DNA from: Phormidesmis sp. | GTDB taxonomy: Bacteria; Cyanobacteriota; Cyanobacteriia; Phormidesmidales; Phormidesmidaceae | DNA: 46,294 nucleotides | Assembly (NCBI GenBank): GCA_041746795.1 | Contig: JBGTGK010000097.1 | Span: forward strand, 1 to 46,294 | Reading direction: 5' to 3' | Shown here: piece by piece, positions 8,376-31,679 of the stretch | Position numbering within the stretch: position 1 is the stretch's first letter | Layout: each line of letters opens with the position of its first letter | Made by a program: the position numbers and the translations under genes | Notes under the pieces: model-generated | What the model was told of the DNA's origin: nothing | The model's input: the letters and a program-made list of their open reading frames with translations, nothing else | Database searches by the model: none

Positions 8376-8418
8376 CACAGCCCTGAGGACAGTCCTAAGG
8401 ACAGTCCTCAGGGCTGTG
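8376..8418. promoter_or_regulatory. 43-bp palindromic array of the GTCCT-N-AGGAC motif upstream of sixA
   Basis: CACAGCCCTGAGGACAGTCCTAAGGACAGTCCTCAGGGCTGTG equals its reverse complement except at three spacer positions. Same motif as the 21.8-23.4 kb arrays. Confidence 0.75.
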
Positions 8419-8451: not shown

Positions 8452-8997
8452 TTGTCTGTTACCGAGGTTTATTTCATTCGACATGGGATTGCGGTAGATC
8501 GCGCCCTAGGGGAGGACGGTGAGGGGCGATCGCTCACCCCCAAAGGCATTGCTAAAACCCAGCTAATTGCCCAGCGGCTGAGTGACCTTAATCTCCAATT
8601 CGACACGCTGCTGACCAGCCCTCTGGTGAGGGCACAGCAAACGGCGGACATTTTGCGCTCAGCAGGGCTCGCCGCACGGGTACAGGATTTTCTGCCCCTG
8701 CGTCCGGGCGGCCAACTAGCCGACTGGCTCACTTGGCTAGGCGAATGGCGCTTGGTGATCGCCCAGCCGAATCACACAAACGCTGAGCTACCCAAGAATT
8801 CAGTCAATCCGTCCGTGGCCTTGGTTGGTCACGAGCCTGACTTGAGTCAGTGGGCACAGCAGCTCGTTTGCGGGCAGTGTCAAGATAACTGGACGCTCAA
8901 AAAAGCGGGCATCATTGGACTACAGGTTCCTGCTGCCGATCGAGCAGTTGGTGAAAGCCAGCTTTTTTGGCTATCATCCCCACGTTTTTTGCTGTAG
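8452..8997 (+). CDS. sixA: Phosphohistidine phosphatase SixA
   Basis: YFIRHG, TSPLVRAQQTA, LVGHEP motifs. Start moved to TTG 8452 (GAGG upstream); the ORF-track N-terminus is just the translated repeat. Confidence 0.9.
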   Translation: MSVTEVYFIRHGIAVDRALGEDGEGRSLTPKGIAKTQLIAQRLSDLNLQFDTLLTSPLVRAQQTADILRSAGLAARVQDFLPLRPGGQLADWLTWLGEWRLVIAQPNHTNAELPKNSVNPSVALVGHEPDLSQWAQQLVCGQCQDNWTLKKAGIIGLQVPAADRAVGESQLFWLSSPRFLL

Positions 8998-9129
8998 CCT
9001 TTTACTCCGCTAACCTCGTACGGGTTTATGCTAAAAATAGCCACCGCTTTAAACTAGCCGCTAGCTCAATCTCTAGTAGCCTTTAGGCTCACCCTTCAAC
9101 GCCCATTCTTACATCAGGAGCCCAAACAG

Positions 9130-21580: not shown

Positions 21581-21608
21581 GAGTCTTATATGCTAATTAA
21601 TCTAGCCA

Positions 21609-21682
21609 TCGGAGCGACAGGATTTGAACCTGCGACCCCTACTACCCCAAAGTAGTGCGCTACCAAGCTGCGCTACGCCCCG
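21609..21682 (-). tRNA. trnP: tRNA-Pro (TGG)
   Basis: Reverse complement CGGGGCGTAGCGCAGCTTGGTAGCGCACTACTTTGGGGTAGTAGGGGTCGCAGGTTCAAATCCTGTCGCTCCGA. Confidence 0.96.
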
Positions 21683-21827
21683 AAGCGTTAATTTGCCTAT
21701 AAAGAATAGCATAACCCTGCACTGCGTTAGGGCGATTTTTCATAGGGAAAGGGCTTGTGACTGCGCTAAAAAAAAGATCAGGCAAAATAGATATTGATCT
21801 CCACTAGACCAAGCAGTCCATAGACCA

Positions 21828-21844
21828 GACAGTCCTAAGGACTA
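21828..21844. promoter_or_regulatory. GTCCT-N-AGGAC motif copy
   Basis: GACAGTCCTAAGGACTA. Its first 15 bp are identical to the centre of the sixA array. Confidence 0.65.
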
Positions 21845-21965
21845 TTTTCCCAAACAGTGAATTAATGAACTTGAGCATAATCAAAAATGAGCGTTGGCAA
21901 TCAAGAATTGCAGCAGGTCAGGCGCTTAGAACCTAGCTTTATCTACCTTACACGAGAATTTTCGC

Positions 21966-22027
21966 ACTATCCTGTGGACTGTCCTGAGGATTATTTTGCA
22001 GACATGTTGGCGGACTGTCCTGAGGAC
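21966..22027. repeat. Five in-phase 12-bp units (consensus ACTGTCCTGAGG)
   Basis: ACTATCCTGTGG|ACTGTCCTGAGG|ATTATTTTGCAG|ACATGTTGGCGG|ACTGTCCTGAGG|AC. Units 3 and 4 are strongly degenerate but keep the phase. Confidence 0.75.
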
Positions 22028-22028
22028 A

Positions 22029-22037
22029 TGATATACT
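22029..22037 (+). promoter_or_regulatory. Extended -10 element TGnTATACT
   Basis: TGATATACT immediately after the 12-bp array. Predicts a transcription start near 22044. Confidence 0.55.
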
Positions 22038-22043
22038 TTGAGC

Positions 22044-22401
22044 AGCTAAAAGACTTGAGGGTTTAGGGGGAACGGCTTCCACTGGTAGGTAAAGCCCCTG
22101 CTGGCGTACAAAGGCCAGAATGACTAAAAGTCCGCCACTTTAGCAGCTTGGTAAGGACACTTTAACAGGTGTGTAAATGTCAAGAAAATGCAAAAAGTGG
22201 TGCCAGTGCTAACCTCAGTATCACTATCAACGTCATCACCGACACCACCGCCAGTATCACCAATACCTAATAACTGCGGCTATAAGCTGCAATTAATCGA
22301 TGAGTGTATCAGCTGACGGCAATCAGCCGGTACTCACCGGTGCTCAATGGCTACATACTAAATAGATTTTTAGAGCTGACAGAAATGTCGGCTCTTTTTT
22401 T
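22044..22401 (+). ncRNA. Candidate structured non-coding RNA (folded core ~22054-22184)
   Basis: Promoter upstream and terminator downstream. Closing helix CTTGA..TTTA/TAAA..TCAAG with internal hairpins GGCTT/AAGCC, CTGGC/GCCAG, GACT/AGTC, ACAC/GTGT. No ORF of 60 aa or more. Confidence 0.55.
22372..22401 (+). terminator. Intrinsic terminator with GAAA tetraloop
   Basis: AGAGCTGACA-GAAA-TGTCGGCTCT ending in a T run. Oriented for a + strand transcript although no + strand gene is called upstream. Confidence 0.85.
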
Positions 22402-22427
22402 AGCTGTTTTTTATATTAGCGCCTCTG

Positions 22428-22997
22428 TTACCTTTTAGAGACCAACCAAGCTACCTCACCGCCCGAGCGAAAGCCTGCTCGGTTGAATACAAAGCCCGCC
22501 TCGTAAAAAGTTTGGCCATATCGACTAATTTCAGCAGGGTCTAGCTTTAGCAGATCTGCTAGTTCAGAGGTTCTGAGCTTCCAGCCATTGCTAGCTGCGC
22601 GCTCTAGTGACTCGTAGTAAGCCAGCGGATCGGCAGCTACAGCGGGCCGCATTTGGGCAGTGAGTTCGGCAGCGATCGCACTCACCAGCTTCACCATATC
22701 CGACTGGTTAAGCGCTAGCCCGCCAGCACCTGACGCCTGGTTGAAGTCACTGGCAGACTGAGTGTTCACATCTAAACCCTTACGGGTAATGAACTCGGCG
22801 ACATTGCCCCCAATTTGGATGAAGTCATGCAGTTCATCGAGCAAAGCAGCTTGCTCACCGCTGATGTAGGCGCGGTTGCCAATTTTTTCTCGTTCAATTC
22901 CCAAGTCAGACATGCGCTTGTATACAGCGCTTCTGGCAAGGTCGTAGCGATCGCTCAGCTGGTTAACCGGTATGCGATCAACATTTTCGCCACTCAT
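22428..22997 (-). CDS. Uncharacterised DNA-binding protein, N-terminal winged HTH plus possible second C-terminal HTH
   Basis: PVNQLSDRYDLARSAVYKRMSDLGI-EKIGNRAYIS fits a MerR/Xis-like wHTH pattern. C-terminal RTSELADLLKLDPAEI...FVFNRAG...AWLV. Paralog is adjacent. Confidence 0.75.
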   Translation of the reverse strand: MSGENVDRIPVNQLSDRYDLARSAVYKRMSDLGIEREKIGNRAYISGEQAALLDELHDFIQIGGNVAEFITRKGLDVNTQSASDFNQASGAGGLALNQSDMVKLVSAIAAELTAQMRPAVAADPLAYYESLERAASNGWKLRTSELADLLKLDPAEISRYGQTFYEAGFVFNRAGFRSGGEVAWLVSKR

Positions 22998-22999
22998 TG

Positions 23000-23023
23000 C
23001 CTATCCTCTGGACAATCCTCAGG
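23000..23023. promoter_or_regulatory. Two 12-bp motif units overlapping the RBS of the 189-aa HTH gene
   Basis: CCTATCCTCTGG|ACAATCCTCAGG. Minus strand reads CCTGAGGATTGTCCAGAGGATAGGCA-ATG. Confidence 0.65.
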
Positions 23024-23109
23024 AGATTAATTAGGTATACCACACATCCCTTCACCTCCGTATGACCTCATAACAAGCTGGCTGTTCTTTACTCCTATTT
23101 GTCGTTGTC

Positions 23110-23355
23110 CTAGCTGTCATCGTTGGTATCTAGGCCATTGTAAAAAATAAATTCGGCGGTCGTTCCGCCACCCTGAATAAACTCGTGCAGGGCGTCTAGC
23201 AAGGTCAGCTGTTCGCGACTGACGTAGGCACGTATTCCAATTTTTTCTGTCTTGATACCCAGATCTTTGCGGCGCTTGTAGACGACACTTCTGGTGAGCT
23301 TGTAGCGATCGCTCAGCTGACTGACAGGCGTTCGACCAAACGGTTCTAAATTCAT
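23110..23355 (-). CDS. Short paralog (81 aa) consisting of only the winged-HTH domain
   Basis: From ATG 23355 it aligns without gaps to the first 81 aa of the 189-aa protein (51/81 identical by hand count). Confidence 0.75.
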   Translation of the reverse strand: MNLEPFGRTPVSQLSDRYKLTRSVVYKRRKDLGIKTEKIGIRAYVSREQLTLLDALHEFIQGGGTTAEFIFYNGLDTNDDS

Positions 23356-23440
23356 TATATCCTCAGGACTATCCTTAAGAAGCAAGTATACAGTACATAG
23401 ATACTATACACACTTTTCCTCCAGACTGTCCTGAGGACTA
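23356..23440. promoter_or_regulatory. Two clusters of the 12-bp motif upstream of the short HTH gene
   Basis: TATATCCTCAGG|ACTATCCTTAAG (23356-23379) abuts the ATG. CTTTTCCTCCAG|ACTGTCCTGAGG|ACTA at 23413-23440. A minus-strand TATACT lies between them (23385-23390). Confidence 0.7.
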
Positions 23441-23454
23441 TATATTACTTCTAT

Positions 23455-24660
23455 TTAATAGCCATAGCTCCAGCGGGCGTAGTAGCCGCGAGTGTCTATG
23501 TGCGTGAAGATGGAGGAGCTTGCCAGCCCACCGCGTGAGCCCCACCAGCGATTGAGATTGTCATATACGGCATAGGAATTTACACCTACTACCACAAAGT
23601 CAACGGCATCGCCGGACATATGACGAGAGTAAAGGGCACCCCCTGCCGCGCGGTTGCTAGCCGGGTCGCGATACCATGAATTGACGGTGATAACGCGATT
23701 GTCCATCCTGGCGCGAACTTCTTCTAGTGCCCCAGCAACTCGAATCATGCCATAAACGATGTTGCGACTCTCTGGAATCCGACCACCGTTTCTGGTAGCT
23801 TCTGCCCAGGTAAAATGTCCGTTTGGAATGATCGGCTCTGAGAGATAGAAAGTGCTGCTAAAGCCGGGCAGACGGAACGGGCCGGTAGGTTTATCAACAG
23901 GCGCAGGCGTCGGATCGGGTACTGGCGTAATGGGCGGGGTGGGATTAGGCGTGTTATTGGGTGGGTTGCCTTCAATAGTGATGTCTGGGGCGTAGGCATA
24001 CCAGGTTTTGAGATCGCGATCGCCTAGCCCCGTCGCCACCAGCGTAACGCGCACATGGTTACCAACGGCATTTTCGCTGTCTACTATTTCAAACTCTGTA
24101 CCATTTTTTACAAACACCTTTTCATTGGGAGCAAGCTGAGAGGACAGCACTGGCCTGAGCTTAAACAGCGTATCGCTAATGACCTTGAGTTTGACGGTAG
24201 AGCCACTGACCCTGACATCAGGCTGATAGACGTACCAGGTATTAAGATTGCTGGGGCCTAAAAACTTATTAGCGAGGGCGACTTTGAAATGATTGGCCGC
24301 TGCTGGTAGATAGGACTGCAAATCGAACTGGGTGCCGTTTTTGACAAACGCTTTTTCTGCATCAGATAGCTGAGAGGACAGCACAGGACGCTGCTTGAAC
24401 AGCGTGTCGCTAACGACCACTAGCTTGACGGGCGATGACTCAATCTCAATATCAGGATTGTAGGCGTACCATATCTTTTGGTTGTTACCCAGGGTCTGAT
24501 TGGCTAGTACGAGCCGGGTGTGGTCGTTTTCGGCATCTGAGTAAGAAACCAGCTCAAACTCAGTTCCATTTTTGACAAAAACCTTCTCCGAATTGGATAG
24601 CTGACTCGACAGCTTAGGGCTGAGTTTAAAGAGCGTATCGCTCACTACTTTGACTTTCAC
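23455..24660 (-). CDS. Peptidase M15A (D-Ala-D-Ala carboxypeptidase-like Zn peptidase) with three N-terminal ~76-aa repeats
   Basis: Three SDTLFK..P.LSSQL...EK.FVKNGT.F...WY.Y.PD units, a Pro/Thr linker, then SWYR..N...GGA..SRHM.GDAVD...FTHIDTRG. Confidence 0.85.
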   Translation of the reverse strand: MKVKVVSDTLFKLSPKLSSQLSNSEKVFVKNGTEFELVSYSDAENDHTRLVLANQTLGNNQKIWYAYNPDIEIESSPVKLVVVSDTLFKQRPVLSSQLSDAEKAFVKNGTQFDLQSYLPAAANHFKVALANKFLGPSNLNTWYVYQPDVRVSGSTVKLKVISDTLFKLRPVLSSQLAPNEKVFVKNGTEFEIVDSENAVGNHVRVTLVATGLGDRDLKTWYAYAPDITIEGNPPNNTPNPTPPITPVPDPTPAPVDKPTGPFRLPGFSSTFYLSEPIIPNGHFTWAEATRNGGRIPESRNIVYGMIRVAGALEEVRARMDNRVITVNSWYRDPASNRAAGGALYSRHMSGDAVDFVVVGVNSYAVYDNLNRWWGSRGGLASSSIFTHIDTRGYYARWSYGY

Positions 24661-29635: not shown

Positions 29636-30877
29636 ATGGCCATGCAGACATCTTCCGCCGCTTTTGTCTTTTCTCCTACCTTCTGTAAAAGCTGGCTCTT
29701 CAGTTTGACCACATCTCAGCATAACCCTCAGCCTGCTAGATCAGTCTTTAGCCAGCGCTTACGGCGGGGACTGGTTTGGGGCGGCGGGTGTCTGCTTTGG
29801 CTGGCGCTAGTGTTGCCTGCTCATGCGGCGGTAGAGCTACGGGTGGCGATCGCCCAGGGCAAGGAGGCCATTAGCGTCGGCAGCTCTACTACGGGCATTA
29901 TCAGCAACGGCGGCAACCAAGCGCTGTATCAGCTACCCAAGCTTCAGGGCATTACCCTCAAGGCAGACACGAACGGGGTAGACCTGACAAATGGCAGCAA
30001 AACACTCTCTGAATCGAATGCGTTTTGGCTAGCGCCATCTGAAGATGGCTTTGTGTGGATTGGCGATAAATGGTATCGCGGTCGGGTGATGGTGACGCTA
30101 GAGAACGGCGAGCTAACCGCCGTTAACTACGTTAATTTGGAAGACTATCTATACAGCGTGGTGGGTAGTGAAATGCCGACCAGCTGGCCCCAAGCCGCCT
30201 TGCAATCCCAGGCAGTCGCGGCTCGGTCTTACGCACTTTATAAGCGCTCCAAATCTTCTAGCCCTTTGTACGATCTTAATAGCACTACGGCTTCTCAGGT
30301 ATACAAGGGCATCGTCCAAGAGGCTCCTAGCACCATTGACGCTGTAAAAACCACGGCTAATGAGGTCGTCACCTACGACGGCCAGGTAATTGAGGCGATC
30401 TTCCACTCTTCTTCGGGTGGACATACTGAAAACGCTAGCGAAGTATGGAGTAGCGACGTGCCTTATCTACACGGCGTTGAGGACTACGATCAAAACGCGC
30501 CTGTGTATAAGTGGGACAAAACCTTTAGTCTGGACGATTTCAGTCGCAAGATAGGCAGTGTAGGCACCGTGCGTAGCCTTGGCACACCCCATCTGACTAC
30601 TCAGGGCCGCGTCGTTTCTATGAGCATCACTGGCGATCAGGGGGCTCACACCTTTAAGGGCAGTGACCTCCGTTCGGCGCTAGATTTGCGCAGCACTCGC
30701 TTTACAATTCAAATAGACAAAAGTTCAGGTCAGGTAAAGATTTCAGGGTTCGGCTTTGGCCATGGCGTGGGGATGAGTCAGTGGGGGGCGCGGAGCTTGG
30801 CTGAGCAGGGCTGGAACTTTGAGCAAATTTTGGAGCACTACTATCAGCGGACGGCGATCGCGCAGCTCGCAGGATAG
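29636..30877 (+). CDS. SpoIID/LytB domain protein
   Basis: LEDYLYSVVGSEM, QAVAARSYA, QVYKG, GFGHGVGMSQWGA, ILEHYY. Start uncertain. Confidence 0.92.
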   Translation: MAMQTSSAAFVFSPTFCKSWLFSLTTSQHNPQPARSVFSQRLRRGLVWGGGCLLWLALVLPAHAAVELRVAIAQGKEAISVGSSTTGIISNGGNQALYQLPKLQGITLKADTNGVDLTNGSKTLSESNAFWLAPSEDGFVWIGDKWYRGRVMVTLENGELTAVNYVNLEDYLYSVVGSEMPTSWPQAALQSQAVAARSYALYKRSKSSSPLYDLNSTTASQVYKGIVQEAPSTIDAVKTTANEVVTYDGQVIEAIFHSSSGGHTENASEVWSSDVPYLHGVEDYDQNAPVYKWDKTFSLDDFSRKIGSVGTVRSLGTPHLTTQGRVVSMSITGDQGAHTFKGSDLRSALDLRSTRFTIQIDKSSGQVKISGFGFGHGVGMSQWGARSLAEQGWNFEQILEHYYQRTAIAQLAG

Positions 30878-30941
30878 CCTCTCTTTTTGACGTCTGCCTT
30901 TTTAACGCCTAAAGATAACCACGTCGGTATTTTAGCGCTGG

Positions 30942-31679
30942 CTATTGAAGGGCGCTCATCAGCGATTCCCAGGCTTTCACGGCTTGCAGAATAGTGCGGT
31001 AGCCAAGCGCATTAGGGTGGAGACCATCGGCATGGAGGCGATCGCCCACCCATCCCTCATCTTGGTGCGCCCACGCCGCCAGCAAATCTAAGTAAGGCAC
31101 CTCATGCGCCTCGCATAGCTGCCGGGTCACGTCCCGATAGCGAGCTTGCTCTGCCCGACTAAAGTACAAAATATTGGCAAACGGCATAGCAGCTTCGTTC
31201 ACTGGCACCATACCGATAAAAAAGACCGGACAAAGCTGACGGGCGCCAGACAGTAGCCAATCAAGCTTTTGCCCGAAGGTTTCTATATCCGTAACCGGGC
31301 GACCCGTAGGACGACCCGCTCTTGCCGAATCGTTGATGCCAACCGACAGAATCAAAACGTCAGGGGTGCGGTGGCGAAGCTCGCCGCGATCGCGAAACTC
31401 CTGCTCTAATCGCTTAGCAACCTGCGTAACGCCATCTCCACGCACGCCCAGGTTGTACAAAATCGGCCCTGGCTGCTCAGGATTCATCCAGCCCAGTCGC
31501 AGCCTCTCTACCCAGCCGCCGCCCTCACTGTCGCCATAGCCGTATATCAGGCTATCGCCAACGGCAATCACTTTTTTCGGATGAATTGCTGTCGTTTTTT
31601 GGCCGGGTTGCCAGGTCAGCGGCGAGGGAAAAGTTGCTGTCATAAAGCCGCTTTTGATAAAAAATCGATTAAAACTCAT
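30942..31679 (-). CDS. SGNH/GDSL hydrolase
   Basis: VGDSLIYG, NLGVRG, GINDS, DGLHPN. Confidence 0.88.
   Translation of the reverse strand: MSFNRFFIKSGFMTATFPSPLTWQPGQKTTAIHPKKVIAVGDSLIYGYGDSEGGGWVERLRLGWMNPEQPGPILYNLGVRGDGVTQVAKRLEQEFRDRGELRHRTPDVLILSVGINDSARAGRPTGRPVTDIETFGQKLDWLLSGARQLCPVFFIGMVPVNEAAMPFANILYFSRAEQARYRDVTRQLCEAHEVPYLDLLAAWAHQDEGWVGDRLHADGLHPNALGYRTILQAVKAWESLMSALQ

What the first reader, a model, noticed from the sequence alone, without database searches (positions are those of the whole stretch)
21828..23440. Candidate undescribed system: paired winged-HTH genes + 12-bp-period palindromic arrays + convergent structured RNA
Seen: two paralogous small genes with a wHTH pattern. 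Five clusters of (GTCCT-N-AGGAC-N)n lie within 1.6 kb, placed over the RBS of both genes, upstream of the short gene, and over the promoter of a convergent terminator-bounded non-coding transcript. A further copy sits 13 kb away before sixA. Established: staphylococcal pSK1 Par is a single wHTH protein that binds 12-bp repeats upstream of its own gene as a centromere-like site, and Bacillus RacA binds dispersed palindromes to anchor the chromosome. Inference: these proteins bind the arrays cooperatively, autoregulate and control the RNA. They may form a chromosomal centromere-like/nucleoid-organising module or a small regulon. No ParA/ParM ATPase, Rep or integrase is present. HIP1 sites at the same position in both genes suggest long residence in cyanobacteria.
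Basis: partly seen in the sequence, partly recalled or inferred. Interest (0 to 1): 0.85.

Follow-up and report, generated by a model that had tools for sequence, protein, structure and literature searches.

The report
Repeat-binding protein with new switchable RNA
Many filamentous cyanobacteria carry a small gene for a predicted DNA-binding protein, likely of plasmid origin, flanked by its own 12-base repeat and faced by a structured RNA found in no RNA library; the protein likely binds the repeats to control itself and that RNA, and in one genus extra repeats cluster around the gene as if marking a chromosome region.

Summary
The GTCCTNAGGAC repeat is rare genome-wide (4 of 5 exact copies lie in this window). 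It recurs at the gene start, inside the gene's linker and at the RNA promoter in relatives. The convergent RNA (about 22044-22402) is a structured family with no Rfam match: 99.8% of cells paired, ten two-sided changes, two mutually exclusive conserved helices and a possible pseudoknot. It was found in seven cyanobacterial families, with the gene convergent in 75 of 78 cases. The protein has a RacA/pSK1-Par/MerR-type winged HTH and a C-terminal domain shared with cyanobacterial RNase HI. Distant plasmid members often carry their own different repeat. Best reading (inferred, no binding or expression data): the protein binds the repeats, represses itself and gates the RNA promoter. The centromere-like idea is partly supported. 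In this genus, distal sites fall at eight positions within about 45 kb of the gene, some inside coding DNA, and the RNA was lost repeatedly while gene and sites stayed. But the locus is not origin-linked, other lineages lack distal sites, and Par/RocS/RacA defining features are missing. sixA is not the target.

The parts
22428..22997 (-). Long gene, 189 aa: MerR/RacA/Par-type winged HTH (about 7-75), disordered linker (78-123, with one low-confidence helix 98-114), C-terminal winged-helix-like domain (122-189) shared with cyanobacterial RNase HI
23110..23355 (-). Short paralog, 81 aa, DNA-binding domain only; optional in relatives, under purifying selection
22044..22402 (+). Predicted non-coding RNA; 5' end inferred from the -10 element, 3' end from the terminator
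22049..22135 (+). RNA core: three-way junction with five covarying helices; near-invariant loop at 22079-22086
22134..22225 (+). Predicted switch: strand 22196-22201 pairs either with 22134-22139 or with 22220-22225; 22203-22208 is complementary to the core loop (possible pseudoknot)
22372..22402 (+). Intrinsic terminator of the RNA, conserved in relatives
22007..22037 (+). RNA promoter: perfect site 22017-22027, extended -10 at 22029-22037, and a -35-like hexamer at 22007-22012 with a 19-bp spacer
21969..21991 (.). Two-unit repeat upstream of the RNA promoter
21816..21842 (.). One perfect unit (21832-21842) and a degenerate one 16 bp away
23003..23025 (.). Two-unit repeat over the ribosome-binding region of the long gene
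23359..23381 (.). Two-unit repeat over the ribosome-binding region of the short gene
23416..23438 (.). Two-unit repeat upstream of the short gene
8380..8414 (.). Distal three-unit repeat between the DHH-family gene (name from recall) and sixA; a site in this gap is seen in 12 genomes of the genus, mostly without sixA

Best explanation
This is a chromosomal three-part module, a protein, its 12-bp repeat and a convergent structured RNA, in which the protein likely binds the repeats through its N-terminal winged HTH, likely represses its own gene and likely gates transcription of the RNA, which is predicted to act in trans and to flip between two folds. Shown by sequence: the linkage of gene, sites and RNA, the covarying RNA structure, and the fixed position of the last site one base before the extended -10 element. 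Inferred: binding; repression at the gene starts, where sites cover the ribosome-binding region; control at the RNA promoter, where the invariant register leans towards MerR-like activation from the spacer, though repression is possible. Also inferred: descent from a cyanobacterial plasmid family in which each gene carries its own repeat before and inside itself, and binding of RNA, RNA:DNA hybrid or a host partner by the RNase-HI-tail domain. The short paralog likely competes for the sites. In genus g1 the same protein likely also gathers distal sites into a local DNA domain.
For: Site-gene co-occurrence in g7: 22 of 35 with motif, the 13 others lack a close gene; the reversed control pattern gave 0 hits in 38, 40 and 35 genomes. 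77 of 78 RNA cores have a site within 60 nt upstream and 75 of 78 a convergent gene within 1.2 kb (the set holds some duplicate genomes). 72 of 74 distinct promoters read site-x-TG-n-TAnnnT. RNA core: 99.8% of 816 cells paired, 10 of 24 pairs with two-sided change, 0 of 500 shuffles, slid controls 34-53%, many G-U changes fixing the + strand; folding z -3.2. Two exclusive helices are 92.7% and 94.4% paired over 39 distinct triples, 0 of 5000 partner shuffles each. Fold of N-domain: RacA Z 8.4 (rmsd 2.3, 66 aa), SoxR Z 8.0, pSK1 Par Z 7.7 (rmsd 1.1, 53 of 53 aa). A family HMM without RNase HI sequences hits the RNase HI tail (35-39 bits; E about 1e-8 to 1e-10 per genome). Cognate repeats: over 23 members under 50% identical, upstream/linker 8-mer sharing is 4.7 cognate against 0.8 non-cognate, 0 of 100,000 permutations. 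38 plasmids carry relatives; the RNA-linked genes form one branch (85/81) among plasmid members.
Against: No binding or expression data. The RNA was lost at least five times in genus g1 while gene and sites stayed, so regulating the RNA is not the protein's only job. A good -35 hexamer at the 19-bp spacing is present in only about 9-10 of 74 promoters; elsewhere another repeat unit lies there. The pseudoknot rests on complementarity and near-invariance (72 of 75), with no compensatory change. The shuffle tests ignore relatedness, and the downstream helix register was picked as best of 13. 8 of 23 family members, this window's gene included, show no cognate linker repeat, and a cruder version of the test failed. 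The tree branch is below the starred level and rooted only at the midpoint. Z-scores near 8 can reflect a common fold, and several MerR proteins tie with RacA and Par.
Confidence: 0.55

Rival explanations
1. The main job is positional: the protein is a single-protein, centromere-like DNA organiser, as proposed for pSK1 Par, RocS or RacA. It would stabilise plasmids in the ancestral state and gather a chromosomal region of about 90 kb in genus g1; the RNA would be an accessory or a scaffold.
For: Distal tandem sites in genus g1 fall at eight distinct positions, all within about 45 kb of the gene by same-contig distance or synteny. They include coding DNA of a thioredoxin-like gene, glmM, dnaK and alr, and gaps after stop codons; one further site (G010:C22) did not map (gene names from recall of the sequences). 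No tandem site of 18 bits or more lies outside this contig in 4.2 Mb. Gene and distal sites persist where the RNA is lost (G035, G059, G116, G051). 7 of 8 whole plasmids examined have no ParA-type Walker A motif. In-gene arrays lie in 23 of 29 relatives.
Against: Gene-dnaA distance is 0.12, 0.91, 0.91, 1.10 and 1.44 Mb in five genomes. Only 1 distal site among 22 g7 genomes and none evident among 18 f6 genomes with the motif; a shorter pattern found two far-off sites. Usually only one or two distal sites per genome. The thioredoxin-like site codes a peptide motif that may favour it. DUF536, a long coiled coil and a terminal amphipathic helix are missing. The plasmids were chosen small and no control set was run; another has an AAA ATPase plus ribbon-helix-helix pair 2.4 kb upstream.
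Confidence: 0.25
2. The RNA is a message or leader for a short peptide read from its C/A-rich tail (tmRNA-tag-like or start-less), or one half of a toxin-antitoxin pair.
For: The tail has three-base periodicity, several indels are multiples of three, and one frame begins with the same few residues in most members.
Against: Open-frame length runs from 10 to 110 codons with no conserved stop or C-terminus. The distance from the core varies by non-multiples of three, so there is no shared upstream start. The conserved part is explained by base pairing. Five of five relatives have an ordinary tmRNA.
Confidence: 0.08
3. The protein is an excisionase-like accessory of a tyrosine recombinase, and the locus is the remnant of an element integrated at tRNA-Pro.
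For: tRNA-Pro is adjacent. Tyrosine recombinases lie within about 4 kb of the gene in 5 of the first 8 plasmid regions. Excisionase models hit 2 of 87 members weakly.
Against: The gene sits beside tRNA-Pro in 9 of 9 genus regions and in other contexts in other genera, with strong purifying selection (dN/dS 0.05). No integrase was recognised in the window. Xis folds score only Z 4.5-4.6.
Confidence: 0.07
4. The motif is a genomic repeat unrelated to the protein, and the RNA an ordinary intergenic hairpin region.
For: As a bare 11-mer, 5 copies in the assembly is within the range of permuted palindromes (0-27).
Against: Clustering, co-occurrence with the gene, fixed promoter register, cognate variants and covariation.
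Confidence: 0.02

Closest known systems
pSK1 Par (Staphylococcus aureus single-gene plasmid partition; PDB 8csh) and RocS
   Same: MerR-type winged HTH (rmsd 1.1 A over all 53 residues, Z 7.7); single gene with repeats at its start; plasmid-borne relatives often without a ParA motif.
   Different: Par and RocS have a central coiled coil, DUF536 and a C-terminal amphipathic helix (PMC11500499, passages). Here: a disordered linker and a folded RNase-HI-tail domain ending in a beta strand; repeats also inside the gene; a linked RNA.
Bacillus subtilis RacA with ram sites
   Same: Best fold match of the DNA-binding domain (Z 8.4, rmsd 2.3, 66 aa); palindromic sites clustered in one chromosome region, some in coding DNA (genus g1).
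   Different: RacA has a coiled coil and binds the polar anchor DivIVA; its sites surround the origin (recalled). Here there are few sites, no origin linkage and no coiled coil.
MerR-family regulators (SoxR, GlnR, TnrA, cyanobacterial CvkR)
   Same: Same domain fold (Z 6.8-8.0); a palindrome between the -35 and -10 positions, with a 19-bp spacer in this window (the 19-bp rule is recalled).
   Different: No Pfam MerR match for the window protein (1 of 87 relatives); no rigid dimer helix or known sensor domain; tandem 12-bp arrays; most promoters lack a -35.
Regulator-plus-adjacent-sRNA pairs (GcvA/GcvB, SgrR/SgrS, OxyR/OxyS; recalled) and PMM1637/Yfr2 (search listing only)
   Same: A dedicated transcription factor with a site on the promoter of a non-coding RNA.
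   Different: The RNA here is convergent, has a three-way junction, a predicted two-state switch and pseudoknot, and matches no Rfam family.
C-terminal tail of cyanobacterial RNase HI (rnhA)
   Same: Homologous domain of about 70 residues; the copy in this genome is at G000:C114:8025-9080.
   Different: Here it is fused to a DNA-binding domain, not a nuclease. The review passages I read on RNase H do not mention the tail (PMC10989914); its function is not established from what I could read.

Membership tests
pSK1 Par / RocS | N-terminal MerR-type winged HTH | tested here: met
   8csh_A Z 7.7, rmsd 1.1, 53 aligned
pSK1 Par / RocS | Central coiled coil | tested here: not met
   residues 78-123 under pLDDT 50, one 17-residue helix; linker length and sequence vary. 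Monomer model only
pSK1 Par / RocS | DUF536 and C-terminal amphipathic helix | tested here: not met
   DUF536 not among Pfam matches of the window protein or the 25 families listed for 87 members; the C-terminus is a beta strand at pLDDT about 90
pSK1 Par / RocS | Repeats upstream of own gene | tested here: met
pSK1 Par / RocS | Stabilises a plasmid or segregates DNA | not testable with these tools
   needs a stability assay
RacA/ram | Many sites clustered around the replication origin | tested here: not met
   one or two distal sites per genome; 0.12-1.44 Mb from dnaA
RacA/ram | Sites clustered by position regardless of gene context | tested here: inconclusive
   met in genus g1, not in g7 or f6
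MerR activators | Palindromic operator in a 19-bp spacer between -35 and -10 | tested here: inconclusive
   present in the window and about 9-10 of 74 promoters; fixed register to the extended -10 in 72 of 74
MerR activators | Long dimerisation helix joined to an effector-binding domain | tested here: not met
   disordered linker; the C-domain has only weak winged-helix matches (Z <= 4.2)
Rfam RNA families (riboswitches, sRNAs, tmRNA) | Match at gathering score | tested here: not met
   tRNAs only; best 30.8 bits against 44, driven by the terminator
tmRNA | tRNA-like domain and tag frame with conserved end | tested here: not met
Excisionase/RDF | Cognate integrase and attachment sites beside the gene | tested here: not met
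   stable synteny, no integrase recognised; att sites were not searched separately
ParABS / ParMRC / TubZRC | Linked NTPase gene | tested here: not met
   for the chromosome (by eye); for 7 of 8 plasmids (motif scan)

The most novel reading that the evidence does not exclude
A plasmid-born, motor-less DNA-positioning protein was captured on the chromosome together with a switchable RNA. The protein coats 12-bp repeats through one end and grips the RNA or its R-loop through a domain shared with RNase HI, building an RNA-containing anchor for one chromosome region: a bacterial ribonucleoprotein centromere-like body.
Probability: 0.15. Interest if true: 0.92.

Novelty: new variant of a known kind. 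Interest (0 to 1): 0.74.

Why it matters
It gives a new family of complex bacterial RNA with its promoter, terminator, regulator and binding site all predicted, so it can be tested directly. It also exposes a large unnamed protein family (931 clusters at 50% identity) on cyanobacterial plasmids and chromosomes. There each gene often carries its own repeat, a candidate answer to how small cyanobacterial plasmids without ParA are kept, and a possible stability part for shuttle vectors. It ties the unstudied tail of cyanobacterial RNase HI to a second protein context.

Tried and rejected
Family libraries: Pfam, NCBIfam and PHROGs gave no match above a curated cut-off for the window proteins and only scattered weak HTH hits among 87 relatives. 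The protein atlas, searched with a 74%-identical homologue, returned unnamed clusters, one mostly viral. Foldseek gave nothing at E <= 0.001 for either model; the C-domain alone had no match above Z 4.2. The profile comparison with the RNase HI tail is circular, as the alignment held that tail, and is not used. Viral contigs: no protein relative confirmed, no RNA pattern hit. Sequencing runs: no RNA holder listed. First unanchored alignment of the downstream region was uninformative. First cognate-repeat test, picking a motif from upstream DNA alone, mostly picked irrelevant repeats and showed no diagonal; the k-mer test replaced it. tmRNA idea: this draft has no tmRNA hit over cut-off but 5 of 5 relatives do. 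Peptide-coding tail not supported. sixA regulation rejected. Origin linkage rejected. Five non-cyanobacterial pattern hits failed the RNA model. Literature: seven searches listed no description of this protein family, repeat or RNA; I saw listings and abstract starts only, except where stated. The two primary pSK1 Par papers were not held, so its repeat structure is recalled. The supplement of the 202-genome cyanobacterial RNA screen (PMC12873609; abstract, outline and passages read) could not be read and might list this RNA. Earlier scan findings: none by sequence or words; the five by place concern the neighbouring chlI gene.
Full report
OBSERVATION. The window is contig C97 of a 4.25-Mb draft genome whose close protein relatives are labelled Phormidesmis. 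Between tRNA-Pro (21608-21683) and a peptidase M15 gene lie two minus-strand paralogs, 189 aa (22428-22997) and 81 aa (23110-23355), 61% identical over the first 85 residues. The palindrome GTCCTNAGGAC occurs 8 times in the window with at most one mismatch, against 0.95 expected; 4 of its 5 exact genomic copies are here. There are six small clusters in 21816-23438 and a triple at 8380-8414. A tandem matrix trained on other genomes finds no site of 18 bits or more in the other 4.2 Mb, and six within this contig. The motif is thus local, not a genomic repeat.

THE PROTEIN. No curated family claims it. It has relatives in 120 of 151 genomes of the order, on 38 plasmids, all named organisms cyanobacteria, and in 931 clusters at 50% identity. 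The model shows an N-terminal winged HTH, a low-confidence linker (78-123) and a second folded domain. The first domain matches RacA (Z 8.4, rmsd 2.3, 66 aa), MerR proteins (Z up to 8.0) and pSK1 Par (Z 7.7, rmsd 1.1 over all 53 aa); these rows are tied within about one Z unit. The second domain folds confidently alone (pLDDT 91) but has only weak winged-helix matches (Z <= 4.2). A family profile without RNase H sequences matched 58 of 150 phylum genomes; in many the only hit covers the C-terminal half. Where I looked, that hit is the tail of RNase HI: this genome's rnhA and three loci. Three other such hits were fusions to unrelated N-terminal parts. The short paralog has only the DNA-binding domain in most cases (74-122 aa in 10 loci), is under purifying selection (median pN 0.32, pS 0.78; only 3 unsaturated pairs) and is absent from many relatives.

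COGNATE REPEATS. In 23 of 29 relatives from the genus the motif also lies inside the gene, in the DNA coding the linker; this window's gene has lost that copy. Distant members carry other repeats at the same places, for instance a four-fold 12-mer in the Moorena plasmid gene. Over 23 members under 50% identical, upstream and linker DNA share 4.7 8-mers in cognate pairs against 0.8 in non-cognate pairs, 0 of 100,000 permutations; 15 of 23 have any cognate sharing. A cruder first test failed. In genus g7 the 22 of 35 genomes with the tandem motif are those with a close gene. This is what a site-specific binder evolving with its site would leave; binding itself is inferred.

THE RNA. The gap downstream of the long gene is conserved in relatives down to 45% protein identity. 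The core (22049-22135) forms a three-way junction: 99.8% of 816 cells paired over 34 sequences, 10 of 24 pairs with two-sided changes, 0 of 500 shuffles, slid controls 34-53% (structure drawn by me from these sequences, which favours it over slid versions). Frequent G-U changes fix the + strand and point to RNA, not DNA. Rfam has nothing at gathering score. A covariance model finds it in 75 of 150 genomes of the order, 4 of 150 of the phylum and 14 of 150 of the class, in seven families. An exact pattern over the genome collection gave 85 stretches, 80 with DNA. I searched 79 of them (one overlap left out) plus three earlier loci: 78 cores in 77 loci, and the five failures were the non-cyanobacterial records. 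Of the 78, 75 have the gene convergent within 1.2 kb, two have it about 0.8 kb away on the other side and one has none on its short contig; 77 have a site within 60 nt upstream. In 72 of 74 distinct promoters the last site is followed by one base and TGnTAnnnT. A terminator closes the RNA in most members, giving roughly 190-430 nt. It was not found in the 8 plasmid regions tested.

A PREDICTED SWITCH. After the core, one six-base strand has two conserved partners: the strand right after the core (92.7% paired) and a strand about 24 nt downstream (94.4%, best of 13 registers), over 39 distinct triples; partner shuffles reached neither value in 5000 tries (relatedness not corrected). Folding favours the upstream partner (0.7-1.0 in four examples). 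In that state the hexamer CCAGTG (72 of 75) is free to pair with the near-invariant core loop; in the other it is held in a hairpin loop. No compensatory change backs this pseudoknot. No gene lies downstream on the same strand before the terminator, so the RNA would act in trans. The C/A-rich tail has three-base periodicity but no conserved stop, and relatives have a normal tmRNA.

CHROMOSOMAL CONTEXT AND DISTAL SITES. The gene lies beside tRNA-Pro in 9 of 9 regions from the genus, and in other contexts on chromosomes of other genera, so it is inherited, not a fresh insertion. Among 38 genomes of the genus, 34 have the tandem motif and the reversed control has 0 hits. Distal hits fall at eight positions: the gap before sixA or gltA (12 genomes, mostly without sixA); inside a thioredoxin-like gene (4 read, 5 more inferred from matched sequence); inside glmM, dnaK, alr and two other genes; and 3-4 kb from the gene. 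All lie within about 45 kb by contig distance or by mapping onto two 120-kb references; one more did not map. In this genome the thioredoxin-like gene lacks the site. Against a general centromere role: g7 and family f6 have sites almost only at the locus, a shorter pattern found two far sites, and dnaA is 0.12-1.44 Mb away.

HISTORY. In a tree of 56 proteins the 28 RNA-linked and 6 RNA-less chromosomal genes form one branch (85/81, not starred) among plasmid and other members; four plasmid labels are inferred from small contigs and several long branches are unsure. The RNA was lost at least five times in the genus while the gene stayed. Seven of eight whole plasmids examined (15-42 kb, chosen small, no control) lack a ParA-type motif.

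MECHANISM. Most likely (0.55) the protein binds the repeats, represses its own and the short gene, and gates the RNA promoter; the RNA is a switchable trans-acting molecule, and the RNase-HI-tail domain is the best candidate for contact with RNA or a hybrid. The positional, Par/RacA-like job (0.25) is compatible with this and best explains the plasmid family, the in-gene arrays, the distal clustering and the retention after RNA loss. Peptide-coding (0.08), excisionase remnant (0.07) and chance (0.02) fit worse.

RELATION TO KNOWN SYSTEMS. Par, RocS and RacA share the MerR-type winged HTH but have a coiled coil, and Par and RocS have DUF536 and a membrane helix (PMC11500499, passages); these are not met here, so this is not a member, though it may work like one. 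Seven literature searches listed no account of this family, repeat or RNA; the library lacks most subscription papers, and the supplement of a 202-genome RNA screen could not be read.

VERDICT. Real, conserved, apparently undescribed; mechanism inferred. Interest 0.74.

Noticed in passing
G000:C114:8025-9080; L105-L108: Cyanobacterial RNase HI carries a conserved C-terminal domain of about 70 aa behind a long linker. Some genomes show the hit in open frames of only about 95-135 aa, suggesting a stand-alone form, and others have it fused to unrelated proteins (L094, L097, L098, L102).
   Followed up: partly
G000 whole assembly: No tmRNA over cut-off in this 94%-complete draft, while 5 of 5 relatives have one; probably an assembly gap.
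   Followed up: partly
window 8453-8998: sixA is present here and in G059 but missing from the same gap between the DHH-family gene and gltA in most relatives read.
   Followed up: partly
L197 (G150:C39), L149, L125: Tandem duplications of the module: two full-length genes in G150; two RNA copies with a split gene in L149.
   Followed up: no
L194 (G017:C39): The RNA is placed divergently from the gene, with another repeat cluster after its terminator.
   Followed up: no
L059 (G031:C1), L207-L209: RNA variants with long insertions in the core helices (up to about 100 extra nt), showing which loops tolerate insertions.
   Followed up: no
window 23455-24660: Peptidase M15 protein with N-terminal repeats of about 75 aa and a proline-rich linker; it neighbours the module in genus g1 and lies about 3 kb away in two g7 genomes.
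   Followed up: no
L036 (Synechocystis PCC 6803 pSYSM 30677-31183): A family member with its own repeat variant sits on a plasmid of a model strain, a ready test case.
   Followed up: partly
One atlas cluster close to the protein by features is 77% viral, although no relative was confirmed in the viral contig scan.
   Followed up: partly
window 22079-22086: The near-invariant RNA loop resembles the centre of the DNA repeat used by several distant family members (L056, L083, L090); an operator-mimic role is a weak, untested idea.
   Followed up: no
G000 contigs C80, C173, C245, C250, C254, C267, C294 and others: A repeated insertion-sequence-like end sits near many contig ends and contains GGACAGTCC; it appears unrelated to the module.
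   Followed up: no
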